Of a stretch of DNA of 64,000 bases, positions 262-61,720 are shown piece after piece (position 1 is the stretch's first letter; every line of letters begins with the position of its first letter). The DNA comes from Ginglymostoma cirratum (taxonomy: Eukaryota): the NCBI GenBank assembly GCA_024137785.1, contig JAHRHZ010000155.1, positions 832,537 through 896,536 on the forward strand, written 5' to 3'. The position numbers and the translations under genes were made by a program. The notes under the pieces are model-generated. The model saw only the letters and a list, made by a program, of their open reading frames with translations. It ran no database searches and was not told the DNA's origin.

Positions 262-601
262 AAGGTGTGGAGCTGGATGAACACAGCAGGCCAGGCAGCA
301 GTAGAAGAGCAGGAAAGCTGATGTTTCAGGTCTGGACCCTTCTTCAGACCCAAAATGTCAGCTTTCCTGNNNNNNNNNNNNNNNNNNNNNNNNNNNNNNN
401 NNNNNNNNNNNNNNNNNNNNNNNNNNNNNNNNNNNNNNNNNNNNNNNNNNNNNNNNNNNNNNNNNNNNNTTTTCTGAAGAAGGGTCCAGACCTGAAACGT
501 CAGCTTTCCTGCTCCTCTGATGCTGCTTGGCCTGCTGTGTTCATCCAGCTCTACACCTTGTTATCTCAGATTCTCCAGCATTGGCAGCTCCTACTATCTC
601 T
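262..601. mobile_element. Penelope-like fold-back mini-element (inverted termini), interrupted by an N gap
   Basis: AAGGTGTGGAGCTGGATGAACACAGCAGGCC at 262 and its reverse complement near 528-560; same arms as 10904-11170 and the terminus of 23734-24941. Confidence 0.8.
370..469. other. Assembly gap (100 N)
   Basis: Run of n; a second 10-N gap lies at 14056-14065. Confidence 1.
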
Positions 602-9300: not shown

Positions 9301-12300
9301 TGCATATGTATGTAGTACATAAATATTACATCCATAAGCTTTCCTGTATAGATTTTACACATGTGGACAGATATCACTTCACCAGTTTAGCATGAGAACA
9401 TCTACTTCTGAACACAACATTCTAAAATGGTACCGGAGTCATTCATACAATCGTACAGTGCTGTTGCTCTAGAAGGGGTGCAAAGGCAATTCACCAAGAT
9501 GTTGCCTGGGATGGAGCATTTCAGCAATGAAGAGAGGCTGGATAAGCTCAGGTTGTTTTCTTTGGAGCAGAGAAGGTTGAGGGAGAAACCTGATCAAGGT
9601 AATGTTTTGGGGGTGCATGGATAGAATGAATGGAAAGCAGCTGTTCCCTTAGTTGAAGGATAAATACCAGAGGGGCAACATTTTTAAGATGACAGGCAAG
9701 CAGATTAGACGGGATTTGAGGAAAACTTTTTTTCACCCAGGGGTTGGCGGGGCTCTAACCTGGAAGAGTAGTTGAGGTTGAAAGCCTCACAACCTTTATG
9801 ACATATGACATTATGAACCCATAATTCAAAGGAATAGGCCTTGTGTACTTAAATAGTACGAGAGCAGGTAGCAGTATAGCGTTGATGGACCGAACGGCCT
9901 CTACTGTATGATTTCTTGATTCTATGAGAGCCCATCAAGTTTGTAACACCAAAACTGCACTACATCTAAATTCTTTGGCTGTTTTTCCAGTTCAAGATTT
10001 CAGTGGATGGAAAGCAGGATTGCTTGGAGCTGGAATCATTTTAAGTGTTGGACTGAGTGGATTCTTCATCTTCAAGTGTGTGAGAAAGTAAGTGCAGAAG
10101 GTTCATTTGCTGCTTTTGAACTTGCAGCAGCTCTACAGCACCTTTGACAGTTCGAAAACACTTCAGAGGCACTGAATTGCCTTGACGTTCAGTCACTCCT
10201 TAATAATCCATCAAAGAGCGCAGTTCTACCTCAGCAGTGCAACCAACGGTGTCAGTCTGGATGTAAAACGTGCTTTGATCTCCTCAGGTTGTGAAACGGG
10301 TTGTTTCACTGCAGGCCAGGAATACTGGAGAAATTGGTCTGGAGAATACTGGTCTGGCTGCAGCTGTGGAGAGGGAAACAGAGTTAACATTGAGAGTCCA
10401 ATCTGAATCATTCACAGATTTTTCCAAATACTATTCTGAACCTGATGAAGACACATGTTGGACTTGAAACCTTAACTCTGTCTCTCTATACGGATGCTGC
10501 CTGCTGTCTGCTGCCCATCCTGCTGAGTTTCTCCAGCATGTTCTGTTTTTGTCTCAGGTCTCAAGCATCAGCAGCATTTTGCTTTGATATAAATGCAAAC
10601 CTCTCTGTCATCAGTGGATGCACCCCTTTCCATTTTCACCATCTCATTTCCCCTCTCTGGTTTCTCTATCTCATTCTCCCCCTCATTCTCTTACACATTG
10701 TCCAGTTTCTCACCGTTTTAAAGAGCAAAGAGTAACATCTGGACCTGCAGAAGTTCCCTCTTCACCCTCTGGAGGGAGCAGTGATCTAAAATTCAAAGTT
10801 ACACTGCAATATTGTCAGGAAACAGGAAACAAAGAGTTAATGATTTACCATTAATGAAAGATAAAGGTCCTGTGTTTCAGAAAAAAAGTGCTTTCACACT
10901 GTTGATAACAAGGTGTAGAGCTGGATGAACACAGCAGGCCAAGCAGCATCAGAGGAGCAGGAAGGCTGACGTTTTGGGCCAAGACCCTTCTTCAGAAATT
11001 ATTCAATTAAATTATTCAACGATCCCCTTCCCCTCCCCCATTTCTGAAGAAGGGCCTAGGCCCGAAACGTCAGCCTTCCTGCTCCTCTGATCCTGCTTGG
11101 CCTGCTGTGTTCATCCAGCTCTACACCTTGTTATTTCAGATTCTCCAGCATCTGCAGTTCCTACTATCTCTGCTTTCACACTGTTATCCACTTTCTCATC
11201 TGACCGATGGTGAATGTTTCTAATTCAATACACAGAGCAAAAAGCACAGGAAGAGGTCAAACAGCATGTGTCAGTAGACACACTCCAGGCGAGCAGTGGG
11301 ACAGGTCCAGGGTAAGTAACATAATTATTGGAATTTAATTCCGCAACCAACATCTTCCTTTGTTAATGCTGTGACTTTATAAAGGCAGATTCCAATGATC
11401 GATGCCATTAAAATATATATACTTAGTATTAAGACCTGGTTGTAAGGCTCAAGTCTGCTGTACAGAACATCTTTTAATCAAATTTTGTGGCTGGGTTGCA
11501 CAAGCTAAGCTAAGCTTGAGCTCCCTAGAGACTAGAACATTAAAGGAGCTGAGCAAAATGATTAAGATAATGAAAGGATTACTTTATAGTACAGAAGTTA
11601 ATTGTTGCTCAAAGGATACAAAATAAAACTACGCAGCATGATAATGACTTCCCGATCATCTGTTTCTTGTGAACACACATTAAAAGGCCTATGCCCACTA
11701 TCTTGAGCAGTGCCCAGTCTAATTCAGGATACTCTGGAAGGGAAAGATGACTCAAAACAAAAGTATCTCACGCTGCTACTCTGCTGAAAACCCACGAGTG
11801 GTTTACTCCACTAAAAAGATCTGGAGTCAAGTCAAAAAGATGTTTTGCCTACGATGCTGTCCGGCAGGTTAGTGATGCAGAATGATGCTAACATCACTGG
11901 CTGAGAGTGCCACGATTGTCCTACCTTTGCAACTTTGCCCCGGTCTAAGCTGTGGTCAACCCTCTGCTTAAACTCATTACAAGTCATCTCTCTCTCTGCA
12001 TTGCCTCAAGCAATGATTGTTTTTCATGAAATATTAAAGGCATTTATTAGATAATCCAAACCCCATTTTGAGTAGACAAAATAGATTCCAACAAACATTT
12101 CACCTTTTTCTTCGAGAAAAAAGGCTCATGGAGACTGCAAATCCCTGCTGTATTTCCCTGGCAACACAACCTGATTAATCACAACCTGCCTGTCGGCTCT
12201 GATAACTCAGATTGACAGTTAACTGTTCCTGTTGCAATTCCATGTCAATACGTTTTAGAGATAATTGTTCCTGCTGCATTTTAATGTCACTAAGATCGAT

Positions 12301-14590: not shown

Positions 14591-14619
14591 GAAGTGCAGC
14601 AATCCTTTAGTACTGGGGA

Positions 14620-14900: not shown

Positions 14901-15990
14901 AGATGGAACGAGGGATTTGAGTTGGTGGATGTACGGGGGAATGTGAGGGGGTGGAGGATGAAGAGAAGAGAGTTGGAAGGACGGGTATTTGGGAGGAATG
15001 AGGAGGAGGGGGCTGTGAGGGAGAGGACGAAGAGAGGAGGATTTTAGGGCCTGGGAGATTTGAGGGACATGGGGCTGTAATGGTGGCGGGGTGAGGGGAG
15101 AAAGCTGATCGGGAGGGTGCAGCGAATCTCAGAGGCATATAGGAGGAGGGTACCATGGGGGAGGTGCCTGTGAGAGGGATGGGCCTGAAGCGGAAGGTGC
15201 ATAGGGGTGCGGGGGAGAAAAGGGGAATGTGGGGAGTTGGTTTTGCGAGGGATGGCTGTTAGTTGGAATGTCTCTGTGAGGGGTAGGGGTTTTGTGAGAG
15301 GTAGGGGTCTGTGGGGGGTACGGATCTGTTGGGAATAGGGGCCTGTGAGGGTTGGAGATGACAAAGTCCCTTTCTTAAGACAAAAGCAGCATGGAAGAAA
15401 TAACCGTTCCCTGATGTCTTCTCGATGGCACCATTTGAACCAATCAAGAGTTTAATTCCTTGCCAATGAGTCCCTGTTTTCGTCCAGTATAAGTCGTTGT
15501 TCCCTTTGAAATTTGGTATTCCTGCGTCTGTCCTGATGAGTTCAAAATGAAATACTTGACACTGTGCCAAGGAATATTGGGAAGGGCTTTCGGTGGATGA
15601 GAGACTGTGTTAATGAGAGATTGCAGTATTGGACTTGCAGGTAAGACTTCTGGGTCAAGTCCTCCTAGCCCAGATTTGTGAAGCCTTCATTCCCAACCCT
15701 CTCCCCTCTCATTCCCTTAGGCGTACCATTTGCATTGTGGTTGCCAACAATCTGTAACATTTACAATTTACATATATTACTATGTCACTTTTGGAGTTTA
15801 GGTTTTAAAATAGTGGCATATGTGCATTGGTGACTTTTGTAAGGTGGTTTCTTCAGGAAAAGACGTTTAGAGAATCCTTCTATAACAGTGACCTAATCAA
15901 ATTGTAGATGACTGCAAACTCCTTGAGTGTTATTGAAATAAGATGTTTATTCTGTGGGTTTATGACAGATAGGATAAACATGTAAGACCA

Positions 15991-16083
15991 CATGCTCCTC
16001 TGATGCTGCTTGGCCTGCTGTGTTCATCCAGCTCTACATCTTGTTATCTCAGATTCTCCAGGATCTGCAGTTCCTACTATCTC
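15991..16083 (+). mobile_element. Penelope-terminus fragment with 8-bp TSD
   Basis: Same arm sequence as ~11080-11170; TAAGACCA at 15983-15990 and 16084-16091. Confidence 0.8.
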
Positions 16084-17714
16084 TAAGACCATAAGGTTTG
16101 TTTTTAGTTCAGTTGAATCTGTAACCAGCAATTTTTAACAATTTATTCAGAAAAAAAAGTTGTTTCTTTTTATATATTAGGTTAAGCAGACACCAGTATT
16201 GAGTTCAGAGGCCTATAATTTCTGTTTTCAGATGTGTGTAAGAGTTCATGTCGCAAATTTGGAATGCTCATTGAATTGTCTGTACAGTCCATGGCAAATT
16301 AAACAGGAAGGAATCAGTTACATAGAAACCATGTGATATGTGATTTATATATACATTAATATCACTTATTGTAAAATTGTATTTTTGAAATTTGAACTAA
16401 TCTTGTGTCACTTTTGTGTTGGAAAGAATTTAATAATCAATTTGTGAGTATTTCTGTAGCCATGGTGATAAAATAATTTTAGAGAGAGAGTCTTGAAGAA
16501 CTAATGGGTTTTTGTTTCCATTGGGAAGGTTTATGAGTGAGGAAAATATAGAATGCACTTAATAGGGCTGGAGAATGGGACTAGCTGGGTAGCCATTTTG
16601 AGAGCTGGTACAACACAATAGGTTGAATGGCCTCCTGTACTGTAAAATTCTGTGATTTGGCTTTCTGGTGGAAGATTTTAGATGTGGTTATAAGGAAGTG
16701 TTTTAGAGGATTAATAGGATTATGCTTTAGCCATATTTATACATTTCAGAATCTTTAAACACATGCAATGTGCAAGTAGTTTGTTTCATTCTATTTTATC
16801 TTCACTTCGCTTCACTTCACTTCAATTCATCTGTATAATAAACATTACGTGCTTGTGTTTTAGTGAGAGACCGCAAAACAAAAATAAAGCAAAATGTTAC
16901 AAGTCAAGCCAAATTTCAGTCTGAGATCTCGTGTCCAGTAATAACATCAGCTGACATCATATGCTTGATGAGTTGAGATTGAGATGTGACATCTCAGTGA
17001 ATCCAATAGAGAAGGGACCGTTCAACTACCATTGAAAGGCTTTTGCAGTCGATCCCTCTGTCCGTGACTGCAGTTGAATTTTTTTCTGTATGTATGTCTC
17101 TGTGTGTGCGTGTGGAGGTATTTTTATGAAGAATTTAGGGTTTTAGCAGAAAAAGTATATGCCAACACTTCATGATTGTTTATCTATAGCTGCAATCAAT
17201 TGATTTGTAATAAATAGACAACATTCAGCATAGAAATGTGGTCTGTGCTTTCTGTCAACCTAAAAGACAGGTACGATGTGGAATATTGCTTTCTCGTATA
17301 AAGCCTTAACTTTTGTGACAATTTGAGGAATAGTGAGGCTTGATTTTGAGGGTACCACCTGAGTGAGGCGTAATGCTTGGTATTTTTTTCTTTTATTTAA
17401 TTATCTTCTATTCTGTTGTTGAGGATAATATGAAGCCCTGTGTGATTAAGTACCACATTAAGATATGATCTATCAATTCAGTCCCATTAGCTGAGATCAT
17501 AACAAGTGGGAACTTTTTAACTAGATCTGAATTAATTGAATTTAAGAGGGATCTGTGTCTATCTTGGGGAAACGGGTATGTAGAGGTTTTTAATGTAATA
17601 GGAGTGTTGTAGTGAAGTTTATTGCGTGAATTGGACTTTTGAGCTGAACGTTGCAAAAATATTCCTGGAAATGAGATGTCAGTGGCCAAATCCAACTCCG
17701 ATTACCTGCACAGG

Positions 17715-18179: not shown

Positions 18180-19325
18180 AACAGAAATTGCTGGAAAACC
18201 TCAGCAGACCTTGCAGTATCTATGGAGAGAAAACATAGTTAACGTTTCAGGTCCAATGACCCTTCTTCAGAACTGTTTGTAACTTGGAAAAGATTGATAT
18301 ATATGCTGAAGATGGCAGGGGGAAGGGGAGAGGAATAAGCATGAAATGGAGCCCAGAGAGACAGAACAACAGCTGAGCAGACAAAGGAATGGATAAAGAC
18401 CAGTCTTGGATAATAAATAGCTGCTAACAAGAACCATTAGGAGCTGACAGTGTTGAAACCAAAAATGCTGGAGATTACAGTGGGTCAGGCAGCATCCAAA
18501 GTTCGGATGAAGAGTTATCTAGATGCGAAACGTTAGCTTGCTTTCCCTCCATAGATGCTGCCTGATCTGTTGTGATGTCCAGCATTTTTTGTTTTCAGTT
18601 CAGATTCCTGCATCTGCAGTAATTTGCTCCCAGTAGCTGACAGTGGGTTGCTTGTGTTGCCAGCCCATGTAATAACGAGGGTCTGGTGTGTGGGGGTTGG
18701 TATAAGGAGATGAGAGAAGGTGCTCAGATTGAATAATGGTTGAAGTCGATATTGACTCCTAAACTCTGCAGGCCTGAAGTGGAAAATGAGATGCAATTCT
18801 TCACTGGAGCACTGCAGCAAGCCTGAGACAGAGATGTTGGTCAGGGAACATGGTGGTGAGTTGAAGTAGCAAGCAAGATTAAACATGGGGTCATTTTTGC
18901 AGACCAAATGTAGGTATTCTGCAGTGCGGTCACCCAGTCTGTGTTTCGTCTCCCAGTACAAAGTAGATCACATTGTGTTCAATGTATAAAGTAGACTATA
19001 TTGAATGGAGTGCAGGTAAATTGGTGCTTCAACTGGAAAGGGTGCCTGAAACCTTAAATAATGAGGGTGGAGGAAGTGAACAGGCAGCATTTACACCTTC
19101 TGTGATTGTGGGGTAAGTGGCTGTGGGGTTATTGGGAACGGGTCAAGGGGAAATGGGTTATGGGTTGGGAGTGATGGAATGGACCAGGGTGTCCAGGCCG
19201 GAACGGTCCTGTGGAAGGCTGATAAGGGAAGGGAGAGGAATATGTGTCCTGTGGTGGCAGAATCCCGCTGGAGGTCATGCAGATGGCGGCTAAAGATTCT
19301 TTTGATGGTAAGTAAGGACTGGAGG
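18180..19325 (-). mobile_element. Penelope-like retroelement remnant (GIY-YIG region) with a nested short element
   Basis: ORF 18533-18961 ETKHRLGDRTAEYL..ACYFNSPPCS..SVSGLLQC; terminus carries a hammerhead core. Confidence 0.8.
18238..18273 (-). ncRNA. Minimal hammerhead ribozyme core (PLE type)
   Basis: Minus strand GTT-CTGAAGA-A-GGGTC(ATTG)GACCT-GAAA-CGTT-AAC; stem I GTT/AAC. Confidence 0.6.
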
Positions 19326-19329
19326 ACCC

Positions 19330-20760
19330 TATTGTTGTTGTTATGGATCAGACCAAACCCCCTCAAAATATATGAAGGTGATAGCCTAGACCCTTTTTTC
19401 ACTTATTTTAAAGGCAAGTACCAGGCGTTGCATTCTGGATGCAATTCGATTGGTCAAACTGTTTGCCTTGAAGCAACACACACGTTATTCATACACTAGC
19501 ATTAAAATACAACAAAAAGAAAGAAGAAATTGGAATAATTTAACTTTATTGGAAAACTTAACAGACTAATCAATTATTTAACTGCTAAACAGTGACTGTT
19601 TTGAAACAGTAACATCCCATATATGCACCTTTGGCAAAAGGCAATTCAGCAAAACAGATTGTCTCACATGGTTCTACCAGGATGAAGAGAATCCTCAGCT
19701 TTTAGGTGTAAATGAGAGAGGAAAAACACAACTTCCACATCCAGCTTCAAGACTCCATCAGTTACTACTGAGAAACTAAAATTAAAAAGCCTGGTTCTAT
19801 GACAGCTTGACCCCACTCATTCAGGTTGCTTCTATTGTCCCAACATTCAAAATAAAACACTTCAAGGCTTCACAAATGTTTATTTTAGTGGCGCTAAGTA
19901 GGCTGACTTGCCACCTCTCTCTCTCTCTCTCTCTCTCTCTCAACATTGCTGAAAAAACCCAGGACAAAATATACCTCTTAAAGCCACCGTATCATCGCAG
20001 CTTCCTACTTAAAAAAAAAACAATCAATATACAAAGATGAGATAACAAGCATGGGACTGGATGAACACAGCAGGTCAAGCAGCATCATAGGAGCAGGAAA
20101 ACTTGACATTTCGGGCCTAAACACTTCATCTCCAATATACAAAGATGACTTCATTTTTAAAAATCTTAGTCTTATGCTGTTAGTTCACAGCAATATGTGT
20201 ACATTATTTTGACTCTGACCATGCAAACATTTACTCCTACACTCCAGTTCAGTACATTTTTGCTCCCACCACCAAACGCTTCCATCTTCAGAATCGTAAC
20301 GTATTGGCAATTACGTTCTCCATTCGCTCATGTGTATAATTTTCAAATTTTATGGCTGCAATAATAAGCTCCATCCAAACAATCTGGAACTTTTATCCTT
20401 AAACGTTTCCAAAACCTTGAAGGGGTTAAGATCAGTATATACGATTGTTTCAGACATATTACCAGCAATATAATTGTTGCAATGTTGTAACGTTAACGCC
20501 AAGATGAAGGTCTCCTTCTCAATCATAGAATGTTTCTGTTGATTATTCAATTATCTTAGAAAGACCTGTTAGATACTTTACATCTTCTTGTCATCTTCTT
20601 GCAAGAGTACAGCAGTGACACCCAAATCACTTGCATCAAGCCACCTTGAATGGCTTTCCATAATTAGGTGTGGCTAACACTGTGGTTACAGCTTTTCAGG
20701 CTGTCAAATGCCTTCTGACATTACATTGTACACTTAAATTTTCTGCACTTCTTTAGTAAG
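19330..20760 (-). mobile_element. Gypsy/Ty3-like LTR retrotransposon remnant (RNase H region plus probable LTR)
   Basis: ORF 20350-20550 HSMIEKETFILALTLQH..IVYTDLNPF..SRLFGWSLLLQ matches Gypsy RNase H motifs (YSxIEKE, YTDHNPL, RWxLxLQ). Confidence 0.75.
20041..20132 (-). mobile_element. Penelope-terminus fragment with 16-bp TSD
   Basis: CAATATACAAAGATGA at 20025-20040 and 20133-20148. Confidence 0.85.
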
Positions 20761-21595: not shown

Positions 21596-23733
21596 ATGAA
21601 TTGATGGGTTTACCTGTTTCCCATGCTGTGCATCTTATCTGTGTCTGTGTCTCTGTCCCTTTTTCCCTCTTTTTCCCTCTCTCTTTCTGTTTGTCTTTGC
21701 CTCTCTTTATTTCTTTCTATAACTCTCTCTTTTTCTCTTTAACAGTTGCTATTTCTTTCTTGCTGTCTCATCTCTCTCACTTTCTCTCTCTTTTCTCTCT
21801 GTCTGTCTGTCTGTCTCTCTCTCTCACCCAGTTTCCCCCCAGTTCCCTTTCTATGTTGGTCTGTCTCTGCGTCTCACTTTGTCTGGCTTGTCTTGACATG
21901 GTATGCTGCGTGTGTTGTGACAATCTGCAGTTAGTGAGTCTGCAAGCTGCACATAGAAATCAGTTAGTTGACAGTAATGTATGCAACATAATCTATCATG
22001 TGTTTTGCTGTTGTAAATAAACTAACAAGTAAGATTAATAAATCCTTGAAGAACAATTGATCATTAGAAGATTCTCCTAAACATAACTAGTCATTATTCC
22101 ATGAAAGAGCATGAGGGAGCTCTCCATGCTACACAATTAACCCTGAAGCAACATTACTCAAAATAAAATGGCTGCATTCATCGTCACATGGGATCTTGCT
22201 GTGCATAATTTGGATATCACATTTCCCACAATCCACCAATGATATTTCGAAATTGTGCTTTAAAAACAAATTGTTTTGGATATCTTGAGGCTGTGTAAAT
22301 TGCTATTGATTTGCAGTTTGATGCGGGAGCTGAGATAAAATTTTCCACTCAACAATTTTCCATATTGCTGCTTTTAACGGCTTCAGTGGAGGAAGGATGC
22401 TGTGGTAGTGGAGGCGGTATGGGCCATCCTATGGCCACTGCAGCAATTACTTGATGCGTGTTGCGGTGTGCTGGTCTGCTTCAGTGGTTTTATTGTCTTT
22501 GGCAGCATGATGGGCCCAGTTTGGGATTCCAATGGCCTGGGTCAGTACAGTCTTCAGCGATAAGGCCCTGGATTCCTTGAGGCAGCTTCTTTGATGTCTT
22601 CCAGTTGGGATTCCAACGGCCCAGCTTGGTCGTCTGCCTCAGCGGCAGCTCTGCAATGAGGTGGGTCCTTGAGGTGGCTTCTGCAGCATCTTTGGCAGCA
22701 CGCTGGTGCAGTCTGAGATTTAGCGGCTATGATGTTCTGCAACGGGTGAGAATGTGGTTCCTGTCTTTTCCTTGACTTTGGGAACTTATGTGAATTGAAC
22801 AAAGGTGGACTTTGTCTTAATTTTTTTTAAATATATGATTTCTGTTGTTAATACAGGTGCTGGAGTATGGCGACTTAAACAATTTTCAGTGTATTTTGGA
22901 AAGATATAGGTGATAGTAAATTACTATTCTTTTCTTTCGATGCCATTGTTGTAGATGTACTGGAACAGCTCAAGATGCTGCAAAATCGCAGAATATTGTT
23001 AGGGCCCATAGTCTTTGCAGTGTCCAGTGGCATCAGCCATTTCTTGCTATTAAGTGGAGTAAACCAAGCTGACAGAGAACTGCCATTGTGATGCTGGGGA
23101 ACCTCAGGAGGAGACTAAGACAGATCATCCAGTTGGCACTGTTGAATGAAGGTTGTTGCAGAAACTTTGCTTTTTTTTTTTTGCATTGTTGTGCAGGGCT
23201 TCCCCATAGTTCAATGTGGAATATTTGTGGAGTCTTCTCGTCCAGAGAGTTGTTTAATTGTCCACCACCATTCAGATCTTGGTTTGGCAGGACTGCAGAC
23301 CTGTCGCTTTAGCACTGTTTAATATTTGCTGCTCGTGTTCTCTGACTTGCAAATAGCCCTGTGTTGTTGCTTCACCTGGCGAACACCCCATTTTTAGGCA
23401 TGCCTGGTGCTGCCCCTGGCACACCCACTTGCACTCTCTATTGAACCAGGGTTGATCTCCTGGCCTGATTTAAATGCTAGATTGGGCAGTATGCTGGGCC
23501 AGGAGGTTGAAGATTGTATTGGAGTACAATTCTGCTGTTGATGGCCCACATGCGCATCATGGATATCCAGTCTTGAGTTGCTGGATCAGTTCAAATTTTG
23601 GCACATCCTTTTTGATGCTGGTAAGGAGGACTTTGCCATTCTTACTTCCAGAGTTTAGATTGGTGTCTGGTGGTCTGTCTGGTTCCTTTTCTGAGACATT
23701 TTCACAGTTTGACACAACTGAGTAGTTTGCTAG

Positions 23734-24941
23734 ATAACAAGGTGTGGAGCTGGATGAACACAGCAGGCCGAGCAGCATCATAGGAGCAGGAAAGCTTGAC
23801 GTTTCGGGCCTAGACCCTTCTTCAGAAATGGGGGGAGGGGAAGAGGGTTCTGAAATAAATGGGGAGAGAGGGGGAGGTGGATAGAAGATGGATAGAGGAG
23901 AGGACAGGTGGAGAGAACACTGACCGGTCAAAGAGGCGGGGATGGAGCCAGTAAAGGTGAGTGTAGGTGGGGAGGTAGGGAGGAGATAGGTCAGTCCAGG
24001 GAGGATGGACAGGTCAAGGGGGCGGGATGAGGTTAGTAGGGAGGAGATGGGGGTGCGGCTTGAGGTAGGAGGAGGGGATAGGTGAGAGGAATAACAGGTT
24101 AAGGAGGCGGGGACGAGCTGGGATGGTTTTGGGATGTGGTTGGGGGAGGTGAGATTTTGAAGCTTGTGAAATCCACATTGATACCGTTGGGCTGCAGGGT
24201 TCCCTGGCTAAATGAGTTGCTGTTCCTGCAGTCTTCGGGTGGCATCATTGTGGCACTGCAGGAGGCCCAGGATGGACATGATGTCTGAGGAATGGGAGGG
24301 GGAGTTGAAATGGTTCGCGACTCGGAGGTGCAATGATTTGTTGCGAACTGAGCGCAGGTGTTCTGCGCTTGGTTTCTGCGCCTCCACTTGGTTTCCCCGA
24401 TGTAGAGGAGGCCACAACGGGTACAGCGGATGCAGTATACCACATTGGCAGATGTGCAGGTGAACATCTACTTGATGTGGAAAGTCTTCTTGGGGCCTGG
24501 GATGGGGGTAAGGGAGGAGGTGTGGGGGCAGGTGTACACTTCCTGCGGTTGCAGGGAAAAGTGCTGGGTGTGGTGGGGCTGGAGGGGAGTGTGGAGCGGA
24601 CAAGGGAGTCACGGAGAGAGTGGTCCCTCCGGAAAGCAAACAAGGGTGGGGAGGGAAAAATGTCTTTGGTGGTGGGGTCGGATTGCAGATGGCGGAAGTG
24701 TCGGAGGATGATGCGTTGGATCGTTGGAGGTTGGTGGGGTGGTACGTGAGGACGAGGGGGATTCTTTTTTGGTTGTTATTGCGGCGAAGGGGTGTGAGGG
24801 ATGAGTTGCGGGAAATGCATGAGACATGGTCGAGGGCGTTCTCGACCACTGCGGGAGGTGGGGGGGGATGTTGTGGTCCTTGAAGAACGAGGACATCTGA
24901 GATGTACGGGAGTGGAATGCCTCATCCTGGGAGCAGATGCG
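23734..24941 (-). mobile_element. Penelope-like retroelement, 5'-truncated (GIY-YIG endonuclease), TSD GCTAG
   Basis: FTCTSANVVYCIRCTRCGLLYIGETK..AEHLRSVRNK..VANHFNSPSHS; RIPLVLTYHP; GCTAG at 23729-23733 and 24942-24946. Confidence 0.95.
23798..23825 (-). ncRNA. Minimal hammerhead ribozyme core in the PLE 3' terminus
   Basis: Minus strand CTGAAGA-A-GGGT(CTAG)GCCC-GAAA-CGTC, same strand as the element ORF. Confidence 0.65.
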
Positions 24942-25521
24942 GCTAGGCCATTTCAGAGGGCAGTTAAGAATCAATCACATTGCTGTGAGTTTGGTACATT
25001 TCCTTCTTAAAGAACATTGTTGAGATAGATGGATTTTTATGATAATAGCAGAGGTTAAACCATCAGACCATTAGAGAGAGGAGCTGAAACAGACCATTCA
25101 GTCCATTGTTACATGGTCATCATTGGGCATATTTTATTTGGAATTCAAATTTCACCATCTTCAGACCATTTTCTCACGGTGCTGCTGCTTTGGAGGCTGC
25201 TATGAAGAGCACTTCTGTTATAGGCTTCTTTTGTCTGAATAAACTTGTATCATTCTTCCATTATAGAACCAAAGTTCCCAAATAGTGATAACATATATAT
25301 TGTGAAGTTTCATCACAACTGCTTCTACTAGTATATGTAAAATTATTCATAAGCTTCGTGCAATCTCTGACGGCATGAAAGAGGTGCAGCATTTTGAAAG
25401 CACGTTTAGAACTAACAACAAAATTGAGCAACATCATTTTCTGGTCATTGTTGTTCAATCATTTTGGCTGCACACGCCTCTAACACCTCCCCCCACCCAC
25501 CACGTTTCTCTCTCAGTTTGG

Positions 25522-28700: not shown

Positions 28701-31700
28701 ACACCTACCCACTGGCTCCGTGGCCCCCCACTAGATCTGATAGATCCACATTCCCCCATCTGCATCAGAGCAGAGACATCCACCATGAACAGCTTCCTCC
28801 GCCCAACACCACACTCCACACTCACCCACTGTCCCCTTTGACAGCACCCCTTCTGTGCTGTCTGCATTTACTTTGAATGGAAGTTACTTGCAGTTGGGAG
28901 GGTGTTGGTGTTGGATGGAGTTCAAGATTCCACACCCCACGCCACATTTATGTGAAGAAAGTGCTTCCTGACATTCCCCGCCACTCCCAATAAAAAAATG
29001 GCCTAACTCGAATTTTATCCAGTGTTGTCATTATCACAAGAGGACATGTTGGTCAAAGAGGCTGGTGGGAGAGAGCAACTTAAAGGAAGTAGAGGGGAGA
29101 AGAAGCGGATTCGATAGTTTAGAGTAAAACCAACTAATCAGAGATTAATCCTCTCACCTTTGACCCAAAGATGCACCTTGAACATGGTTGCCCCATGTGG
29201 GTTTCGAACCAAGCATGATGCCATCACTTCCTCTTCATCCTGGTGTCCCATAAGGAACAGGGAGCCCATCACCAGCTGTCCCGCTCTGAGCTGCTGTGAC
29301 TCAAAACCTCCATGTGTTTGGTTACCACTGAGGTTGGCATGGAGCAGGTACCAAGTGAGGTGTCCAGGAGGGTTAGAGTTGGCCACACAAACGCAGGTGA
29401 TCCCGTCTGCCCTCCAAGCACATTCCGACTCCTGGGAAAGCTCCGGACCATCTCAGGAGGGAATGACAGCAATTAATCAAAAACCGTGGAGTTAGAACCT
29501 GAACACTAAAATCTTCATCAGTGCCGTACTTCACTCTAAACTCATATCTCAACAACAGGAACAATAACAAAGTTGCTGGAAAAGCCCAGCAGTCTGGCAG
29601 CATCTGTGAAGGAAAAGACAGAGTTAACGTTTCGGGTCCGGTGATCCGCAGTTCTTTCAGTTTTTATCGAGTATCTCAACACTCTCTCTGCTAGTCTCCC
29701 ACCTCCCACATCCAAAACTCTGATGCTCCCAAGTGTGAATCTGAATTCAGTAATTACACTCTATCATTAGCTGAACACCATTGACACCCACTCCAAGATC
29801 TCTACCTTTCTCAATTCTGACCTCTTGAACATACACTGATTTCCATCCCTCCGCCATTGTTAAGTGTCTTCCGCTGCTTGCGACTCTAAGCTCTGAAATT
29901 TCCTCCCTAATCCCTCTTTCTCCTCTTTACAATGCTCCTTAGCAGCCAAACTGTCAGTCACTGATCCTAATATACTCTGTATCTCAGTGAGGGACAGTTT
30001 ACAGCAGTGAGGAGGCTCTTTATTCAAAAATACAGTGGGTAATCTGCCCCCAGACAGACAGTACCTGAGTTTTAAGAAGAGACAGAGTAAACTGCTTACA
30101 TTCCACATTCAGGTGGGTTGTGTTGGAGGTGCTGTTACCCAATGGGTTTGTTGCTGTGCAGTAGAAACCTGCATCATCCCTCCGCGTTACTGGAGTGAAG
30201 GAGAGAATCCGGCTGCTTGTGTTTAATTGGGTGCTGGTGTTTCCCTCAATCCTGAACCAGGTGTAATGAGTTATCGACGGGGCACTTTCACTGGAGCAGG
30301 TTAATGTGACGTTGTTTCCCTCTCTGATCCCACCTGAGGCTCCACTAGTGGACACTGTGGTCTCCCGTGGGGAATCTGGAACAACAGCAGAGGAGCATCA
30401 TCAGGTAATCTCCATGCCCCACAATCCTCCAAGATCTTAAAAGAGGAAAGTATAAAAAATTTGTATCGGTGTTTATGACAGGCATGTGGATGTGTGTAGA
30501 CACTGTAAATGTAACAGTGTTTTGGGGATATAAATTTGTTTGTAGAGATGTGGCTGTGTAATCTCTGGTGTGCATTTGATACCACACACACAAATTGAAC
30601 AAGGCAATAGCTGGAGATTATGATGGACCCAGACAAAAGACACAGGAAGACACTTGGACTGAACATGAATGCGTCAATGTCAAACATAATGCCTCTAAAT
30701 GGCAAGGGGGATATCAAGATTGGGTACACCAAGGTAGGAAGAGTGGACAATTTCCAATACTTGGTCGATGATAAACATCAAATTTACATCCAGGTCTGAA
30801 ATATGGCTTAGAACAACAACAGCAGGCACCGTGATTAGTGACTTCAGTCTCAACATCTAAAAACATCAGCCTGAAGCTGAGAAAATGTTGGTGCTGTCAC
30901 TCATGATGGATATGAGAGTCAGACTGCAGAAAGTGGATGAGACGAGGGTGAAGGTTTTTGAAATGTGGGTGTATGGCCGAGGATGCTCAGATTCAGCTGG
31001 TTGGAGATCAAGGCAAATGAGTGGTTTAGAGAAAGAGTAGGTCGGGAGCTAGAAGGGAGAGTTAAGTCCAGTTAGACTGAGATAGACAGATAAGTATGGG
31101 CATAGAAATGAAGAACCATCTTTGTCTTAGCAACACCTGTGGAGAAATTGGGGGTAAATACAAAAAGGGATAAAGAAAAATCAGACAGTGGATAACATTG
31201 GAGCCAGACAATTGAAGAAATCCAGAGAAGAAACAAGACAATGCCAATGGCCCCTCTAAAGATATTGTAACAATGAACAAATCTAACAGCAGTCTCACAT
31301 AACACATTGATGGTTACGAAGCTGTTTTCTGTTCCATGTTCATTCTCTGCCACACACTGATAGTCTCCAGTCTCCCTGTATGTAACGTGAGGAATCTCCA
31401 ACCACACCTCATTGTCAGAACTTGTACTGTTCATTGTGACATTAAGATGCCTCCACGTCAGGTTAGAAGCTGGGAAGCTGTTCACAGAGCAGATTATCAC
31501 TACAGAATTCCCCTCTGTTATATTGATTGATGAATCTTCAATCACGACAGGAGAAGTAATTAAGAGATTCCGTGGTGCATCTAAAAACAAATACAGATGA
31601 CTTAACTCACCTTGTCTGTGAAGCATTTTGAGAGGCACTGAGAACAGGTAATCAATGCAGGTTCCTTTGCCGCAAAGCACAGAAACCAGACAAACACTAC

Positions 31701-34700
31701 AATTCAGTACCAGAGGGTACAGCAAACTAATTGGGTTAATAATGAGGGAGTGCAACACTCTGAGGGTCAGTATTCAGGGAAGACAGTACCGTATGTGGGT
31801 CAGTACTAAGGAAAGTAGCCCTGTGAGAGAACTGTACTGAGGGATCACTGCGCCATCAGAGTTAGTACTGAGGGTGTGCAGCCTTTTTAGTGCATAAGTA
31901 CTGAGTATAAATGGCACTGACCGGGGATAAGTACTGGATGTGTATTACCCTGTTGAAGGCTCAGTACTGAATGAGCACTGCACTGTCAATCAGTACTGAG
32001 AGAGTGCAGCACTTTTTGATATAGCTGTATTGTGGGAAAGTTCATACTGAGTGCCACGCAGCTGACCAGTCATTACTGAGTGAGCACTACATTTTCAGAG
32101 GATTATTACAAAGGATTCGCTGCACTGTCAGTCAATACTGAATGAGTGCTGCATTGTCAGAGCAGTACTGTTGAATGCTGAGCACAGAATGAGTGCTGCA
32201 CTGTTAGCGAATCATTAGTGAATCACTGCTAATACTGACACACACATACCATTGTAGCATCACCAGAAAATAGTTTAGTCACTCATGCATTTTTGCAGAC
32301 GTGCTAGTTTAGGGATGAGTGTTCCTGTATGTGTTCGTGCAGGAACGATAGCCATAGCCATAGAGTCATAGAGAATTACAGCACAAAAAAATGCCCTTCA
32401 GCCAGTTCAAACAAGTTGATCAAAAACAAGAGATAGTAGGAGCTGCCGATGCTGGAGAATCTGAGATAACAAGGTGTAGAGCTGGATGAACACAGCAGGC
32501 CAAGCAGCATCAGAGGAGCAGGAAAGCTGACGTTTCTGAAATTTCTGAAGAAGGGCTCAGACCCGAAACGTCAGCTTTCCTGCTCCTCTGCTGCTTGGCC
32601 TGCTGTGTTCATCCAGCTCTACACCTTGTTATCTTTGATCAAAAACAAGCACTGATTATAATTCTTCTTGCTGGCACTCAGCCTATATTCTTATATGCCT
32701 TGACATTGCCAGTGAGCATCTAAATACTTAAATGTTTTCAGAGGTCCTGCCGCTGCTACTCTTTCAGGCAATGAATTCTAGACTTTCCCCCAACCCTCTG
32801 TGAAGAAGTATTTTCTCACATTCCCTCTAAAACTGCTGCACCTTACTTTTAAATATGCCCCCATTTATTAACTTTTCTACCAAGGGGAAAAGCCCCTACT
32901 TATAGCCCCTGCTCATTTCCATCATAACTTATCCATTATTTCCCCAGCTTTGCTCCAGGGAAAACAACTCCAGTCTATCCAATCACTCATCATAGGTAAA
33001 ATCCTCCAGCCCATGTAACATCCTAGTTAATCTCCTGTGCCCGCTCTTCAGGTCAATCACATCCATCGTATAATGTGGATTCCAGAACTGTATATAATAC
33101 TCCAGTTGTGGCCTAGCAGTTTTTTTTTTTGCAGTTCCAGTATAACCTGCCTGCTCCTGTATTCTGTTGTTCAGTTAATAAACCCTAGTATATCCTTAAC
33201 CACTCTGGCTACCTGCCCCACTCCCTTAAAGGACTGGTAGATATTCATATCAAGGGTTCCTCTAATCTTCAGTGCTCCCCAGTTCACCATGTAATCCCTT
33301 ACCTTTTTTTTATCATGCCCAAGTGCATCAAATCACATTAATCTGGATTGAATTCTATTTGTCACTGATCAGCCGTCTATAACCTCCTGTAATCTACGGC
33401 TGCCTTCCTACCTATTTATCAGCCCACTGTTTTTGTTTTAGTATCATCCGCAAACTGACTGATCAACCCTCCTATATTCATGTCTAAATCGTTTGTACGT
33501 ACTTCAATCTGGAAGGACCGCAACAATGATCTCTGTGGGACCACCCATTGGACACAGGCTTCCGGCCACAAAAGCACTCCTCAACCATACCCTCTGCTTC
33601 CTGCCACTTGCTCAATTCTGGATCCAATTTGGCAAATTTCATTGGATCCCATGAGCTCTTAACTTTACTGTCAGTCTCTCAAATGGAACCTTATCAAAAG
33701 CCTTGCCAAAGTCCAAGCAGATGACGTCAAATGCATTGGCCTTCATTCTTGAATAACAGACCCACATTAATGTCCTCCAGTCCTCTAGCATTTCTCCTGT
33801 GGCCACAGAAAAATTGTGAATATTTGCCAGTGCCCTGCTATTTCCTTCCTTGCTTCACTGAAAAGCTAGGATACACTTCATCTGGTCCCGACAATTCATC
33901 ATCTACTTTCAAAATAAAAACCGAAAGAACTGTGGATGCTGCAAATCAGGAACAAAAACAAAGTTGCTGGAAAAGCCCAGCAGGTCTGGCAACATCTGTG
34001 AAGGAAAAAACAGAGTTATCGTTTCGGGCCCGATGACCCTTCCTCAGAACTAATACACTGAGGAAGGGTCACAGGCCCTGAAATGTTAACTCTGTTTGTT
34101 CCTTCACAGATGCTGCCAGACCTGCTGGGCTTTTCCAGCAATTTTGTTTTTGTTTCTTCTACTTTCAAGCCTGCCAGACCACTCAGAGCCTCCTCTTTGT
34201 CTATGCTGATTTCTTCAATTATTTCATCCCTCCCCCCTGATTCTATACCCACATTGTCCCTCTCACTAGTGAACGCTGGCATAAAATGTTTATTGAGAAC
34301 CCAACCCATATCCTCTGGGTCCACACAAACTGACAGTGTGGTTCTTAATGGATCTGACTCTTGCCCAAATTATTCTTTTACCCTTGTAAAATAAGTTAGA
34401 CTGTGCCTGCATGTTACTTGCCATTATCCTTTCACGCCCCCATTCTGCTCTCTGAATTGCCTTTTCAATATCCCTCTTACATACTCCATATTCATATAGA
34501 TTTTCTGCTGTTTAAGTCCTCAGTACCTGCATAAAATTCTTTTATTCTCTGTTATTCAATCATGTATATCCCTTGACATCAAAGATTTGTCAGATTTGTT
34601 GGTCCCACCCTTTATCTTTCTTGGAAATTGTGTGCCTATAATCTCCATATTTCCTTTTTGAATGTGACATACTTTTCTGACACAGACTTACTGAAAAGCA

Positions 34701-52700: not shown

Positions 52701-55700
52701 TCGTCAATACTGAGGGAGTTGCTCACTGTTGATGGGCCACTGCTGAAGGAGTGCTGTAATGTCGGAGGGTCAGTACTGAGGGAGTGCTACACTGTCAGAG
52801 GATCAGTACTGAGAGAATGCTACACTGTCAGAGGGTCAGCACTAAGGGAGTGCTGCACTGTCAGAAGGTCAGTACTGAATAACTGCCGCACTGTTGGAAT
52901 TTCATTACCGAGGGAGTGCCGCACTCTCAGATGGCTCAGTACTGAGCGAGTGCTGCAATGTCGAAGGGTCAGTACGGGAGTGCTGCATTGTTGGAGGGTC
53001 AGTACTGAGGGAGTTCTGCACCGTCAGAGGATCAGTAGTAAGGGAGTGCTGCACTGTCAGAGGGTCCAGTGCTGAGTGAGTGCTGCAATGTCGGAGGGTC
53101 AGAAGTGAGGGAGTGCTGCTCTGTCAGAGGGTCAATGCTGAGGGAGTGCCGCTGTGTCAGAGGATCAGTAGAGAGGGAGTGTTGCACGATCGGAGGGTCA
53201 CTGCTGAGGGAGGGATGCACTGTCAGAGCGTCAGTACTTGTGAAGTGGTCTACTATTGAAAGATCAGTCCTGTAGGAGTGTCACACTTTCAGAAGGTCAG
53301 TACTAAGTGAGTGCACACTTTCAGAGCTGCCGTTATTTGTGTGATATGTCGAATTAGCTATGTGCCTTGTCATCATTTCCACGTTGATATAATTAATAAC
53401 TGGAATAGTGTTCTTCGATGAGTTTCTCCAGACATGTGTGGAGTTTTCATTTTCCTGACAAACTGACTCATGAAATCACTAGTTTGAAATACCACTGGAC
53501 TGACAGAAAAAGGGTCTTTTTAAGGAGATATCACTTTCACTGTTGTTGTGAAGCTGGTGGAATTGAAGGCAATTTCAAAATAGTGATTTGGATGTGCCTG
53601 TCAGTGATGGTTTAAATTGAAAAAAATGACAGTTGACTCTGATCGATTATTTCAGAAAATCTGTCTCCTCTACACCTATCTTCTCCTTTGTGCATCTTCT
53701 ATCCGCCTCCCCCTCTCTCCCTATTTAATTTGGAATCCCCTTCCCCTCCCCCATTTCTGAAGAAGGGACGAGACCTGAAACATCAGCTTTCCTGCTCCTC
53801 TGAAGCTGCTTGGCCTGCAGCTCTACACCTTGTTATCTCTGAGCGATTATTTATTTGCCAACCAATCAGCCCCATTTTTTTCCCTATAAAATTTGCTGTT
53901 CTTGAGTGTGCCCTGATGAGTGTGAGATGAAAAGTTCCAACAAAATGTCTGTCTTTTCTGCCGTACAAAATATAGGACTTTGCATTGGTCTGTGTCAAAC
54001 TACATTTGCAGTAATTTCACCCCATGGAGATGATTAATAGACTCAAAGAAGGTTTCGATTTTAATTTTAGAGAACATAAGTTTGCCTCACGAGTCGAGTT
54101 TCCTTTTCACCAACACTAGGACTGACCACAAACAGAAATGCCAATCTGAGGAATATGGGACGGTGTTCAAAGGGAATCTACATGTTTGTGAATGAGGAAG
54201 GAAGGTTTGATAAGTCATTGATAAGTCAAGATCACAAATAATAGGCATCCTGAGGAAGAGTCATATTGGAAATGAAATGTTAATTCTGTTTCTCTTTCCA
54301 CAGATAAGCCTGGACCTGCTGAGTTTCCTCAGTACTTTCTGCTTATGTTTAATAAGGAATATGAGCAGGAGTAGGCCATTTAGTCCCTCCAGCAAGTTGA
54401 TCTCATTGTGAACTGGACTCCACTTTCCTGCCTGCCCATTCTAATGTCTTTATTTCCTTGTCAATAAGAAGTCTCCTCTCAGCATTGAATATATCAAATG
54501 ACCCATCCTTCTCCATTTTCAGGTGAGGAGATTTCCAAACATTCAAAATTCATCCCCATTTCAGTTTTAAATGTCATCTTCACTCCTTTCACCACTGATG
54601 CTCAGAAGCAACAGTGTGTACTATCTGCAAGATGCAAGTTCACCTCCAAGCCACTTAGCCCCAAGCTGTTTCACACTCACTCTCTGTTTCTCTCTCTCTC
54701 TCTCTCTCTCTGTGATGGAATGAATCTGCTGAAGACTCTTTGGAAGTTATTGCCCTCAGATTGATAATATTGACTGTTAGGAATTGCTTTGGATCCTCAT
54801 TTTCTAAGGGATTTTTTAGGTCTTCATTGTCTGAGGATGTATTTGGAACTCCATTGTCGAAGAGAACTACTTGAATCATCATTGTCTTTGCATCATTATT
54901 GCTTAAGGGATCCCTTTGGATTCCCTTTGTCTGAGGGATTTATTTTTCAGTATTTTTTCAGTTCCACACTGACTAAGTGGTCTCTTTGGACCTTCAGTGT
55001 TTAAGGGATTGTGTCTGTTCCAAACCTCGCATTGCTGTATCGGTGATTCTGACGCAGTGTTGGAGACTGACTTGTCCCCAACTCAGCATCGACCCTACTC
55101 CAGCAGACACTATGAAACACTCAAGCAAAGTGCCTCTAGTCTGAGCTCCTCATGTGATGGAGTTTCCTCTATGATAGGTGCACGGCTTTCACAGATGGTC
55201 TCACAGTCTTTGTCGTTCAAACAGGACTTGGCCCCACACTCAAGGCTGATACCGGAAGCCAATTGTTTCCTGTCCATCTGGAATAGCTATTACTTCATCA
55301 GGAAACTGAACTATTGCCGGGAAGGAACTTAAATCATTGGATTGCAGAATTGTACATCGCTGATGGAGATAATTCCATCCATTCTGCCTGGGTCAGCTCT
55401 TTGAAAGATCTCTCGAATTAGTCCCCACGACCTCCTCTTTTCCCCACAGCCATGAAAATGTTTCCCTTTGCAATATTCCTCCAATCCCTGCTTTTCAAAT
55501 TTCCTCTGCAATCTGATTCCACTGCCCTCTCAGGCAGCAATGAATTGATCTCCTCTGGAGCTGCAATGTTCTCAGAGTCTGCGTAATTTACAGAGTGCAA
55601 CGGATCAGAGACAATCAGGCTGTCTCTTATCTTGTCTGTCCTAGAGTTGCTGTGGGATATTTGGATTAAAATCAGGAAAAGACATAAACTCCAGGCCACT

Positions 55701-60709: not shown

Positions 60710-61720
60710 ATTCTATTTCTTTACAGAACCTCTGGTTGATTTCAATCATCTGGTTTCTCACTTAGGATCATTAACCAATATTTCCACCACCTCCAGTGAG
60801 ATGTCACCACCAAACACATATTCCTGTCCCCTCCATTGTCAACCTTCTGCAGGGACTGTTCCCTCTGGGACACCCTGGTCCACTCTTCTTTCACTCCCAA
60901 CACCTTGCCTCAGCCTCACAACACATTCCCCTGCAACTGCTGAAGTTTTAACACCTATTCGTTTACTTCCTCCCTCAGTATCCAAGGGTCCAAACTCACC
61001 TTCCAGTTGAAGCAGCACTTTACCCTGTATTTCACATAATCTAGTCTACTGCATTCGCTGCTCACAATGTCTTCTTTACATTGGGGAAACAAAGCATAGA
61101 CTGGGTGACTGCTTTGCAGAACATTTGTATTCTGTTTGTAAAAAAAAGGATCCTGAACTTCCAGTTGCTTGCCACTTCAACATAACACCCTGTTCCCTGG
61201 CCAACACCTCTGTCTCGGGCTTGCCCAGTGTTCCAGCGAAGCTCAGCACAAGCTGGAAGAACAGCACCGCATTTTCCACCTGAGGACCCTGCAACCTTCT
61301 GGACTCAATATTGATTGCATAAAGTTAGGGCTTGAGCTCTTCCATGTCCTTACCCCAACCCCAACAACCAGGCCTTGTTATCACATAGTCTGCCATTACA
61401 CACTACCCGTTGTGAACCACTAACAGTCCCCATTAACAGCTATTCACCCTCCTAGCCAGATTATTATCTACTCCTTTGTCTGTCTAACTGTTCTTCTCTC
61501 ACTTTGGGCTCTATCCCCACCTATTGTTTATTCCGTAGCCCCTTCCACCATCCTATCTTCTGCATATAAACTTACATTTTCCTAGCTACCATTGGTTCTG
61601 AGGAAGGGTCACTGAACCCGAAATGTTAACCCTGATTTCTCTCCACAGATGCTGCCAGACCTGCTCAGCTTTTCCAGTAATTTCTATTTTTGTCTCTTGT
61701 TCTCACTTACTTGCAGTATT
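60710..61720 (+). mobile_element. Penelope-like retroelement remnant (GIY-YIG plus 3' terminus)
   Basis: NLVYCIRCSQC..YIGETKHRLGDCFAEHL; QHKLEEQHRIFHLRTLQPSGLN; hammerhead-like core at 61594-61631. Confidence 0.85.

What the first reader, a model, noticed from the sequence alone, without database searches (positions are those of the whole stretch)
10889..11185. Hammerhead-ribozyme-bearing fold-back mini-elements inserted as units with long TSDs
Seen: ~200-270-bp palindromic elements built from two inverted copies of a Penelope terminus, each flanked by a perfect TSD: 15 bp (10904-11170), 15 bp (32431-32634) and 11 bp (33913-34157, a second family). Single-arm inserts have 16-bp (20041-20132) and 8-bp (15991-16083) TSDs, and another fold-back lies at 262-601. 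The arms contain CTGA(A/G)GA-A-stemII-GAAA-CGT(C/T); at least 8 such cores are visible (474-501, 11044-11071, 18238-18273, 23798-23825, 32545-32572, 34021-34090 twice, 61594-61631). Established: Penelope-like elements carry minimal hammerheads with a loopless palindromic stem III that are proposed to cleave as dimers. Inference: these are either extreme truncation/inversion products or a non-autonomous retrozyme/MITE-like family; the differing spacers favour independent formation.
Basis: partly seen in the sequence, partly recalled or inferred. Interest (0 to 1): 0.7.

Follow-up and report, generated by a model that had tools for sequence, protein, structure and literature searches.

The report
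Two-sided Penelope start-site run-off stubs
These short mirror-image inserts are real stubs of a known jumping gene (a Penelope-like retroelement) in shark-type DNA, not a separate mobile family; their ends suggest that the enzyme likely copies the front end of its own RNA into both cut DNA strands until it runs off at the transcription start, which would explain a long-puzzling layout of this group.

Summary
The fold-backs and all five TSDs are real. They are the shortest form of the known head-to-head, one-tailed insertion of endonuclease-bearing Penelope-like elements (PLEs), not a retrozyme or MITE. There are at least 2,994 and 1,735 matches for two families. Junctions differ in 61 of 61 pairs, and kilobase-long copies share the layout.

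- One tailed plus one tail-less arm in 56 of 61 pairs, and either arm can be longer, so both were likely primed separately on RNA.
- Arm 5' ends stop 4 nt before the hammerhead core, 31 nt downstream of a TATA-like box, on an initiator-like A.
- A G precedes the stop in 38 and 47 of 100 listed copies (control 18 of 100).
- Partner arms pass or stop there together (5 long-long, 20 short-short, 0 mixed).

Best reading: twin priming with run-off at the capped RNA 5' end. No RNA or biochemical test was possible, and ribozyme activity is untested. This scan already noted the twin-priming reading (103 notes, at least 14 genomes) and the stop at the ribozyme edge. One word search found no note tying the stop to a TATA/initiator start.

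The parts
10889..10903 (.). left target-site duplication, 15 bp
   Evidence: exact match to 11171-11185
10904..10999 (-). tail-less arm, family A; 5' end exactly at the -4 stop site; hammerhead core has lost G12
11000..11026 (.). 27-nt junction filler with an internal 8-nt repeat; unique to this copy among 61 pairs; repair-type filler (inferred)
11027..11170 (+). tailed arm, family A; runs from -17 (past the stop site) to the tail end
11044..11071 (+). intact minimal type-I hammerhead core (CUGA-N-GA, extra A, 4-bp stem II, GAAA, palindromic ACGU, GUC); predicted cleavage after 11071
   Evidence: motif definition from PMC4209133
11135..11170 (+). ~35-nt PLE tail, present on one arm only
   Evidence: tail described in PMC11167929, PMC8557442
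11171..11185 (.). right target-site duplication
32416..32649 (.). family A twin insert with 15-bp TSDs: tailed arm (-) starting at +20, tail-less arm (+) starting at -4; neither arm contains the other
33902..34168 (.). family B twin insert with 11-bp TSDs: tailed arm (-) from -4, 6-nt filler, tail-less arm (+) from the core
18442..18645 (.). third-family twin insert with 11-bp TSDs; tailed arm starts at -4; nested in an older family B copy
29545..29681 (.). lopsided family B twin insert (long tail-less arm, ~25-nt tail piece) with 10-bp TSDs
20025..20148 (-). single tail-less arm of a family A variant with 16-bp TSDs
15983..16091 (+). single tailed arm, 5' end inside the arm, 8-bp TSDs
262..601 (.). 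family A fold-back interrupted by a 100-N gap; junction and TSD unresolved
23732..24943 (-). long decayed family A copy: GIY-YIG endonuclease remnant, upstream pLTR, hammerhead, tail-less end
60789..61720 (+). long decayed family B copy; TATA-like octamer at 61563-61570, 31 nt before the stop site
53660..53842 (+). family A copy that keeps the promoter region; TATA-like element starting at 53722 (-31)
   Evidence: position read from the sequence

Best explanation
These inserts are the shortest insertions of autonomous Penelope-like retrotransposons, each formed separately, likely by two reverse transcriptase sites priming on both strands of a staggered cut and likely copying the 5' end of the element's capped mRNA until they run off at the transcription start. 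SHOWN: PLE identity; TSDs mostly 13-16 bp; head-to-head arms with two fixed 3' ends (~+93 and ~+127 from the hammerhead C3); a sharp 5' stop at about -4; copy-specific junctions. INFERRED: (1) a TATA/initiator promoter in the pseudo-LTR starts transcription 4 nt before the hammerhead core; (2) the protein, which in the lizard element cuts and extends both strands and starts at two internal RNA sites (PMC11167929), uses one start site per strand; (3) if it starts in the 5' copy of the pseudo-LTR both cDNAs end after ~100-130 nt (stubs), and if it starts in the 3' or read-through copy both run long; (4) host end joining with microhomology and templated filler links the two cDNA ends. The hammerhead rides along uncleaved and is not needed to make the stub.
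For: PLE: long copies encode RT plus a GIY-YIG motif; relatives carry PF00078 and PF01541. Same layout with kb-long arms. One tailed plus one tail-less arm in 26 of 28 pairs in the unselected blocks and 56 of 61 overall (about 50% expected). The tail-less arm reaches further 5' in 19 pairs, the tailed arm in 22, equal in 15, so neither is a copy of the other. Arms share subfamily variants (9.4% discordance vs 30% for shuffled partners). Stop: family A, 24 of 43 arms that reach -3 end at -8..-3 and 0 of 19 end at -30..-9; family B, 27 of 32 (25 family A arms next to N or block edges dropped first). 28 of 30 loci with a non-C at -5 end exactly at -4. The best TATAWAWR match in 300 nt upstream begins at -31 (sole best in family B, tied best in the family A reference). 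An initiator-type A lies at -4 in 92 of 97 long family A copies and 3 of 3 long family B copies. G precedes the stop in 38 of 100 and 47 of 100 listed rows vs 18 of 100 at a control position and 26% background (rows counted by eye); untemplated G marks capped 5' ends of L1 (PMC4859970). Passing the stop is shared by partner arms: 5 long-long, 20 short-short, 0 mixed, with 8 mixed expected (p = 2e-5; 1 long-intermediate pair set aside). Fillers copy adjacent arm sequence in 15 of 24 cases. Only 2 of 129 arms begin at the ribozyme cut site.
Against: No RNA 5'-end data. The TATA match is only 6 of 8 in family A and is decayed in the window's long family A copy. It was not the best match in one of two copies of a further family, and only tied best (at -29) in the other. 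Initiator-like 7-mers are common (4-9 per 300 nt). The G excess is modest, A is as common in family A, and G can come from the partner arm or filler. The stop also coincides with the 5' edge of hammerhead stem I, so structure is not excluded. Mixed long-short pairs do exist (5 of 84 rows over all loci), and the focal insert itself pairs a -4 arm with a -17 arm. Of 30 copies that continue into the ORF, 6 run past the stop and only 2 begin near it. Family B arms often include -5. 19 of 61 pairs gave no TSD. Filler origin and the dimer step are inferred, the dimer from a different PLE clade.
Confidence: 0.62

Rival explanations
1. Twin priming is right, but the -4 stop is a structural or protein-bound block at the hammerhead's 5' edge, on templates that continue upstream. 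The stubs would then be ordinary 3'-end truncations.
For: The stop coincides with the end of the 4-bp stem I (pairs 2.1-2.4 formed in 88, 77, 58 and 48% of 88 cores). The stop rate rises over +10..-3 before the edge. A coordinated dimer or a shared termination event could correlate arm lengths.
Against: An enzyme reading 3' to 5' should stall on the 3' side of a helix, not after passing it (general reasoning). Stem I is weak and is not in the predicted fold of the family A arm. This reading does not explain the TATA-like box at -31 in two families with different upstream sequence or the G excess. Independent pausing predicts 8 mixed pairs and 0 were seen.
Confidence: 0.22
2. Self-priming or fold-back: one cDNA (or an antisense template) turns on itself and copies the second arm, as proposed for rotifer PLE palindromes.
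For: Arms share source variants and their lengths are correlated. Proposed in PMC3846280.
Against: In 19 of 56 pairs the tail-less arm holds 5' sequence that the tailed arm lacks, while the tailed arm holds the tail. This needs frequent one-sided deletion, yet the split is symmetric (19:22). The second arm ends at a fixed internal site.
Confidence: 0.1
3. A non-autonomous fold-back family (MITE- or retrozyme-like) that is copied as a unit.
For: High copy number. Some family B junctions recur (7 of 50 and 5 of 50 listed places).
Against: 61 of 61 family A junctions are distinct. The recurrent junction occurs in both polarities (4:3) and on different variants. The continuum runs up to kb-long arms. 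There are no tandem hammerheads, and the sense core is buried in duplex.
Confidence: 0.04

Closest known systems
Insertion units of endonuclease-bearing PLEs with an adjacent inverted pLTR and a one-sided tail (Adineta vaga Pen2a, PMC3846280, passages read; general scheme in PMC8557442, passages read)
   Same: Head-to-head inverted 5'-truncated copy, 30-40-nt tail on one end, 8-10-bp TSD, microhomology junctions, TATA and initiator-like motifs in the pLTR.
   Different: Here the whole unit is 100-270 bp with no ORF, occurs in thousands of copies, has mostly 13-16-bp TSDs, and has a fixed 5' boundary. In the passages read, PMC3846280 explains the palindromes by self-priming and PMC8557442 leaves the mechanism open.
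Poseidon of Anolis carolinensis (PAc; PMC11167929, parts 1-2 of 4 read, supplements searched without hits)
   Same: Two internal RT start sites that define the tail; both strands cut and extended; predicted dimer; hammerhead cleavage not needed for insertion.
   Different: The parts read do not treat inverted pairs or a fixed 5' stop. Family A has a C-x4-C-xx-C linker, the motif PMC8557442 gives for Neptune, so it is likely another clade (no tree built).
Minimal hammerheads of metazoan PLEs (PMC4209133, parts 1-2 of 4 read)
   Same: Core, extra nucleotide after A9, G10.1-C11.1, palindromic 15.2-16.2, short stem I; mostly dispersed single motifs, some pairs 100-700 bp apart on opposite strands.
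   Different: That paper calls singles 'probably related to truncated PLEs'. Here they have a defined 5' end 4 nt before the core. Activity is untested here.
Non-LTR retrozymes (bioRxiv 10.64898/2026.07.22.740005, parts 1-3 of 5 read)
   Same: Non-coding, pLTR-derived, type-I hammerhead.
   Different: Retrozymes are head-to-tail tandem units with at least two complete hammerheads. These are head-to-head with one sense core per strand.
L1 twin priming and cap-derived G (review PMC4859970, passages read); retroviral strong-stop DNA (recalled)
   Same: Both target strands prime; small indels at the junction; untemplated G at the RNA 5' end.
   Different: In L1 the inverted part is the 5' segment of the insert (that it does not duplicate the 3' part is recalled). 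Here both arms copy the same segment from two start sites 35 nt apart.

Membership tests
EN+ Penelope-like element | Single ORF with RT and C-terminal GIY-YIG endonuclease | tested here: met
   In long genomic copies: RVT_1 hit below the curated cut-off, GIY-YIG motif seen, relatives with PF00078 + PF01541. Copies are frameshifted, and the stubs have no ORF.
EN+ Penelope-like element | Pseudo-LTR overlapping the ORF start, partial tandems | tested here: met
   arm and tail continue into the ORF 5' end; tandem units
EN+ Penelope-like element | Inverted 5'-truncated copy and one-sided 30-40-nt tail | tested here: met
   56 of 61 pairs
EN+ Penelope-like element | Variable-length TSD | tested here: met
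   9-18 bp in 42 of 61 pairs; 0 of 61 controls
Neptune clade | Placement in RT phylogeny | not tested
   Only the C-x4-C-xx-C linker was seen (motif per PMC8557442)
Minimal type-I hammerhead | Conserved core, stem II, palindromic stem III, NUH triplet | tested here: met
   Stem II pairs formed in 83-89% of 88 cores; 88 hits vs 4-8 in shuffles. The pairing shuffle ignores relatedness and includes about 6 chance hits.
Minimal type-I hammerhead | Match to an Rfam hammerhead model | tested here: not met
   none at E <= 10
Minimal type-I hammerhead | Self-cleavage as a dimer or with protein | not testable with these tools
   needs an in-vitro assay
Non-LTR retrozyme | Head-to-tail tandem units, each with a complete hammerhead | tested here: not met
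   Neighbouring arms within 600 nt: 28 head-to-head, 5 tail-to-tail, 4 same-direction
Non-LTR retrozyme | Circular RNA intermediates | not testable with these tools
   no suitable reads
MITE-like fold-back family | Copies descend from a master with a shared internal junction | tested here: not met
   61 of 61 distinct; recurrent junction in both polarities
MITE-like fold-back family | Terminal inverted repeats of equal extent, fixed short TSD | tested here: not met
   one-sided tail; TSD 9-18 bp

The most novel reading that the evidence does not exclude
Penelope-like elements make a strong-stop-like cDNA. The enzyme primes twice, once per target strand, about 100 and 130 nt from the capped 5' end of its mRNA and runs off at the start site. 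The product is then either joined as a fold-back stub or jumps to another place on the RNA. This one intermediate would account for inverted pseudo-LTRs, the one-sided tail, partial tandems and the masses of solo minimal hammerheads in animal genomes. It would also put the ribozyme at the first nucleotides of the mRNA, where cutting removes a 32-nt capped piece.
Probability: 0.45. Interest if true: 0.72.

Novelty: new variant of a known kind. Interest (0 to 1): 0.5.

Why it matters
How PLEs build their tandem and inverted ends is stated to be unresolved (PMC8557442, PMC3846280). These stubs are a very large natural record of that reaction: roughly 29 family A head-to-head pairs per Mb in the blocks sampled. 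They give three sharp predictions that the published lizard in-vitro system and 5'-end sequencing can test: one start site per strand, run-off at a capped end, and paired arm lengths. As objects they are decayed insertions (arms differ by about 7-9%) with no sign of host function. They can be misread as MITEs or microRNA hairpins (sub-threshold mir hits).

Tried and rejected
Rfam scan: no hammerhead family, only sub-threshold microRNA hits caused by the hairpin.

Sequencing runs: no RNA holder listed, only assembled contigs. These cannot show RNA starts, so no reads were laid.

Ribozyme-cut template: rejected, since 2 of 129 arms start at the cut site.

An intron acceptor at the stop, as in D. 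virilis (PMC4209133): rejected. Family A has no AG there, and family B arms keep the AG.

Two unrelated RNA templates per insert: not supported. Discordance at variant columns is 9.4% vs 7.1% at invariant ones (p = 0.06). One RNA versus two RNAs from one locus stays open.

Tail-to-tail fold-backs: rare, 54 exact-pattern matches for one spacing, mostly one variant inserted at another copy's end (different pattern, not a strict ratio).

Single-arm folding is no more stable than shuffles.

The first TATA regex found nothing because it was too strict; it was redone by scoring.

The PAc supplements gave no sequence with which to check the promoter register.

Four of 24 sampled 50-kb blocks were all N and add nothing. 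The blocks were hand-placed, many next to readable loci, so density figures are rough.

Literature searches for Penelope-like + twin priming, strong-stop/pLTR, shark + Penelope + hammerhead ribozyme, and head-to-head + self-priming listed no paper proposing run-off at the start site. I judged these from listings, except for the papers named as read. The library lacks most subscription journals, and the bioRxiv supplements could not be seen.

Full report
Numbering. Positions such as -4 or +127 count from C3 of the hammerhead core (CUGA, C = 0). 'Family A' is the arm of the focal insert and 'family B' that of 33913-34157.

Observation. All five TSDs are exact and at the stated places, and the inverted arms are 90-96% complementary. 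The focal insert reads: TSD, tail-less arm on the minus strand (10904-10999), 27-nt filler, tailed arm on the plus strand (11027-11170), TSD. The arms meet at their 5' ends. The insert at 262-601 spans an N gap. Two further twin inserts with TSDs lie at 18453-18634 and 29555-29671. The window holds Ig-domain exons of a CD22/Siglec-like cluster. The nearest named relatives of the element's protein come from carpet sharks at 84-90% identity.

What the arms are. Longer copies in the window and genome carry the same arm at the end of an RT and GIY-YIG coding region. Relatives carry PF00078 and PF01541. Beyond the tail the sequence continues into the ORF start, as described for PLE pseudo-LTRs (PMC3846280, PMC11167929). 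The hammerhead fits the minimal type of PMC4209133: 88 descriptor hits in 952 kb against 4-8 in shuffles, with stem II paired in 83-89%. Rfam models do not detect it, and activity is untested.

Not a separate family. Exact patterns give 2,994 family A and 1,735 family B head-to-head matches, both lower bounds, though one locus can count twice. All 61 family A junctions examined differ, and 15 of 24 fillers of 8 nt or more copy at least 7 nt of an adjacent arm. The commonest family B junction (7 of 50 listed) sits in both polarities relative to the tail, 4:3, and on different variants. Arms of several hundred to 3,000 nt show the same layout. A transcript of the fold-back buries its one sense hammerhead in a long duplex. 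This layout, an inverted truncated copy with a one-sided 30-40-nt tail, is described in PMC8557442 and PMC3846280.

Twin priming. The 3' ends fall in two groups, near +93 and +127. One arm of each kind makes up 26 of 28 pairs in the unselected blocks and 56 of 61 overall; about half would be expected by chance. The tail-less arm reaches further 5' in 19 pairs, the tailed arm in 22, with 15 equal, so neither is the template of the other unless one-sided deletions are common. Partners share subfamily variants, with 9.4% discordance against 30% for shuffled partners, but not CpG decay. They come from one source and have aged separately. The lizard element PAc cuts and extends both strands, starts at two internal sites that bound the tail, and is predicted to be a dimer (PMC11167929). 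One start site per strand is the simplest join of these facts; it is an inference.

The fixed 5' stop. Of 100 family A arms kept (25 dropped for N or block edge), 43 reach -3; 24 of these end at -8..-3 and none of the remaining 19 ends at -30..-9. In family B, 27 of 32 end at -8..-3. Genome-wide, 2,081 copies have a non-C at -5 and 7,763 have C. Of 30 loci of the first kind 28 end exactly at -4; of 30 of the second, 21 are long and 9 end at -5 to -8.

Three lines point to a transcription start. First, the best TATA match in 300 nt upstream begins 31 nt before the stop, as sole best in family B and tied best in family A, and the stop is an initiator-type A in 92 of 97 long family A copies. Second, the letter before the stop is G in 38 of 100 (A) and 47 of 100 (B) listed rows, against 18 of 100 at a control position and 26% background (counted by eye from the first 100 rows of 2,081, 1,837 and 957). 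An untemplated G is taken as the mark of a capped 5' end in L1 (PMC4859970). Third, partners pass or stop together: 5 long-long, 20 short-short and 0 mixed in the unselected blocks, where independent pausing predicts 8 mixed. Over all loci the rows are 24, 50 and 5, plus 5 with an intermediate arm, and two long-long loci are listed twice.

Against this reading: there are no RNA data; the TATA match is weak in family A and unclear in a further family; G can be supplied by filler; the stop also marks the edge of stem I; the focal insert pairs -4 with -17; and copies that continue into the ORF begin near the stop in only 2 of 30, while 6 run past it. In 8 of those 30 loci a unit starting at -3 to -6 is preceded directly by ORF-start sequence, which looks like a template jump after run-off.

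Mechanism. SHOWN: identity, TSDs, two 3' ends, one per pair, the fixed 5' stop, unique junctions, correlated arm class. INFERRED: promoter and start site, priming on both strands, run-off at the cap, joining by host repair. The hammerhead would occupy the first ~35 nt of the mRNA. Only 2 of 129 arms start at its cut site, in line with uncleaved RNA being the substrate for PAc (PMC11167929). I put twin priming with independent formation at about 0.85 and the full model with run-off at 0.62.

Novelty. The layout is known. A fixed 5' boundary at a promoter start and the twin-primed run-off reading did not appear in the papers read or in four targeted searches, within a library that lacks most subscription journals. 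I wrote this idea down before consulting the scan's notes. Those show 103 notes in at least 14 genomes for my search words; of the eight listed, most reach twin priming and some note the stop at the ribozyme edge. A search with TATA, initiator and run-off words gave none, and a looser one gave notes on TATA boxes near PLE hammerheads without this link in the lines shown. These are unchecked AI notes and not support.

Verdict. Real; a miniature variant of known PLE insertions; not a retrozyme or MITE; of moderate interest as a testable record of the PLE reaction. Interest 0.5.

Noticed in passing
window 2941-50186, mostly minus strand: Repeated Ig-domain exons (V-set/CD22-like first domain, C2/I-set): a duplicated CD22/Siglec/MAG-like gene cluster with near-identical exon blocks.
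   Followed up: partly
window 46720-47750 and 42219-42313: A further, unrelated hammerhead-bearing repeat family. 46720-47750 is a larger head-to-head inverted pair with no TSD found; likely another PLE family.
   Followed up: partly
L243-L272 (e.g. L244, L247, L265, L271): Units that start at -3 to -6 and are preceded by 40-450 nt of ORF-start sequence, some with short microhomology: candidate template jumps after run-off.
   Followed up: partly
L181-L182 and the listing; window 20041-20132: Most tail-to-tail pairs involve one family A variant joined at the AT-rich 3' end of another copy, suggesting that this variant targets existing copies.
   Followed up: no
L091, L097, L274, L278, L280, L281, L287, L291: Fold-backs with one arm cut short at its outer end and no TSD; possibly later deletions at the palindrome.
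   Followed up: no
window 61622-61652 and family B arms generally: Just after the hammerhead, family B carries a branch-point-like motif, a pyrimidine tract and CAG followed by ATG, resembling a splice acceptor; no donor was looked for.
   Followed up: no
L199, L232, L234: Short telomere-type hexamer runs lie at PLE junctions or flanks in three loci.
   Followed up: no
window 51131-53326 (also 14325-14616, 49467-49659, 58319-58534): A degenerate ~33-bp tandem repeat family in several arrays.
   Followed up: no
window 5142-8421: Fragments of a LINE reverse transcriptase (RVT_1 hit); CR1-like by recalled resemblance only.
   Followed up: no
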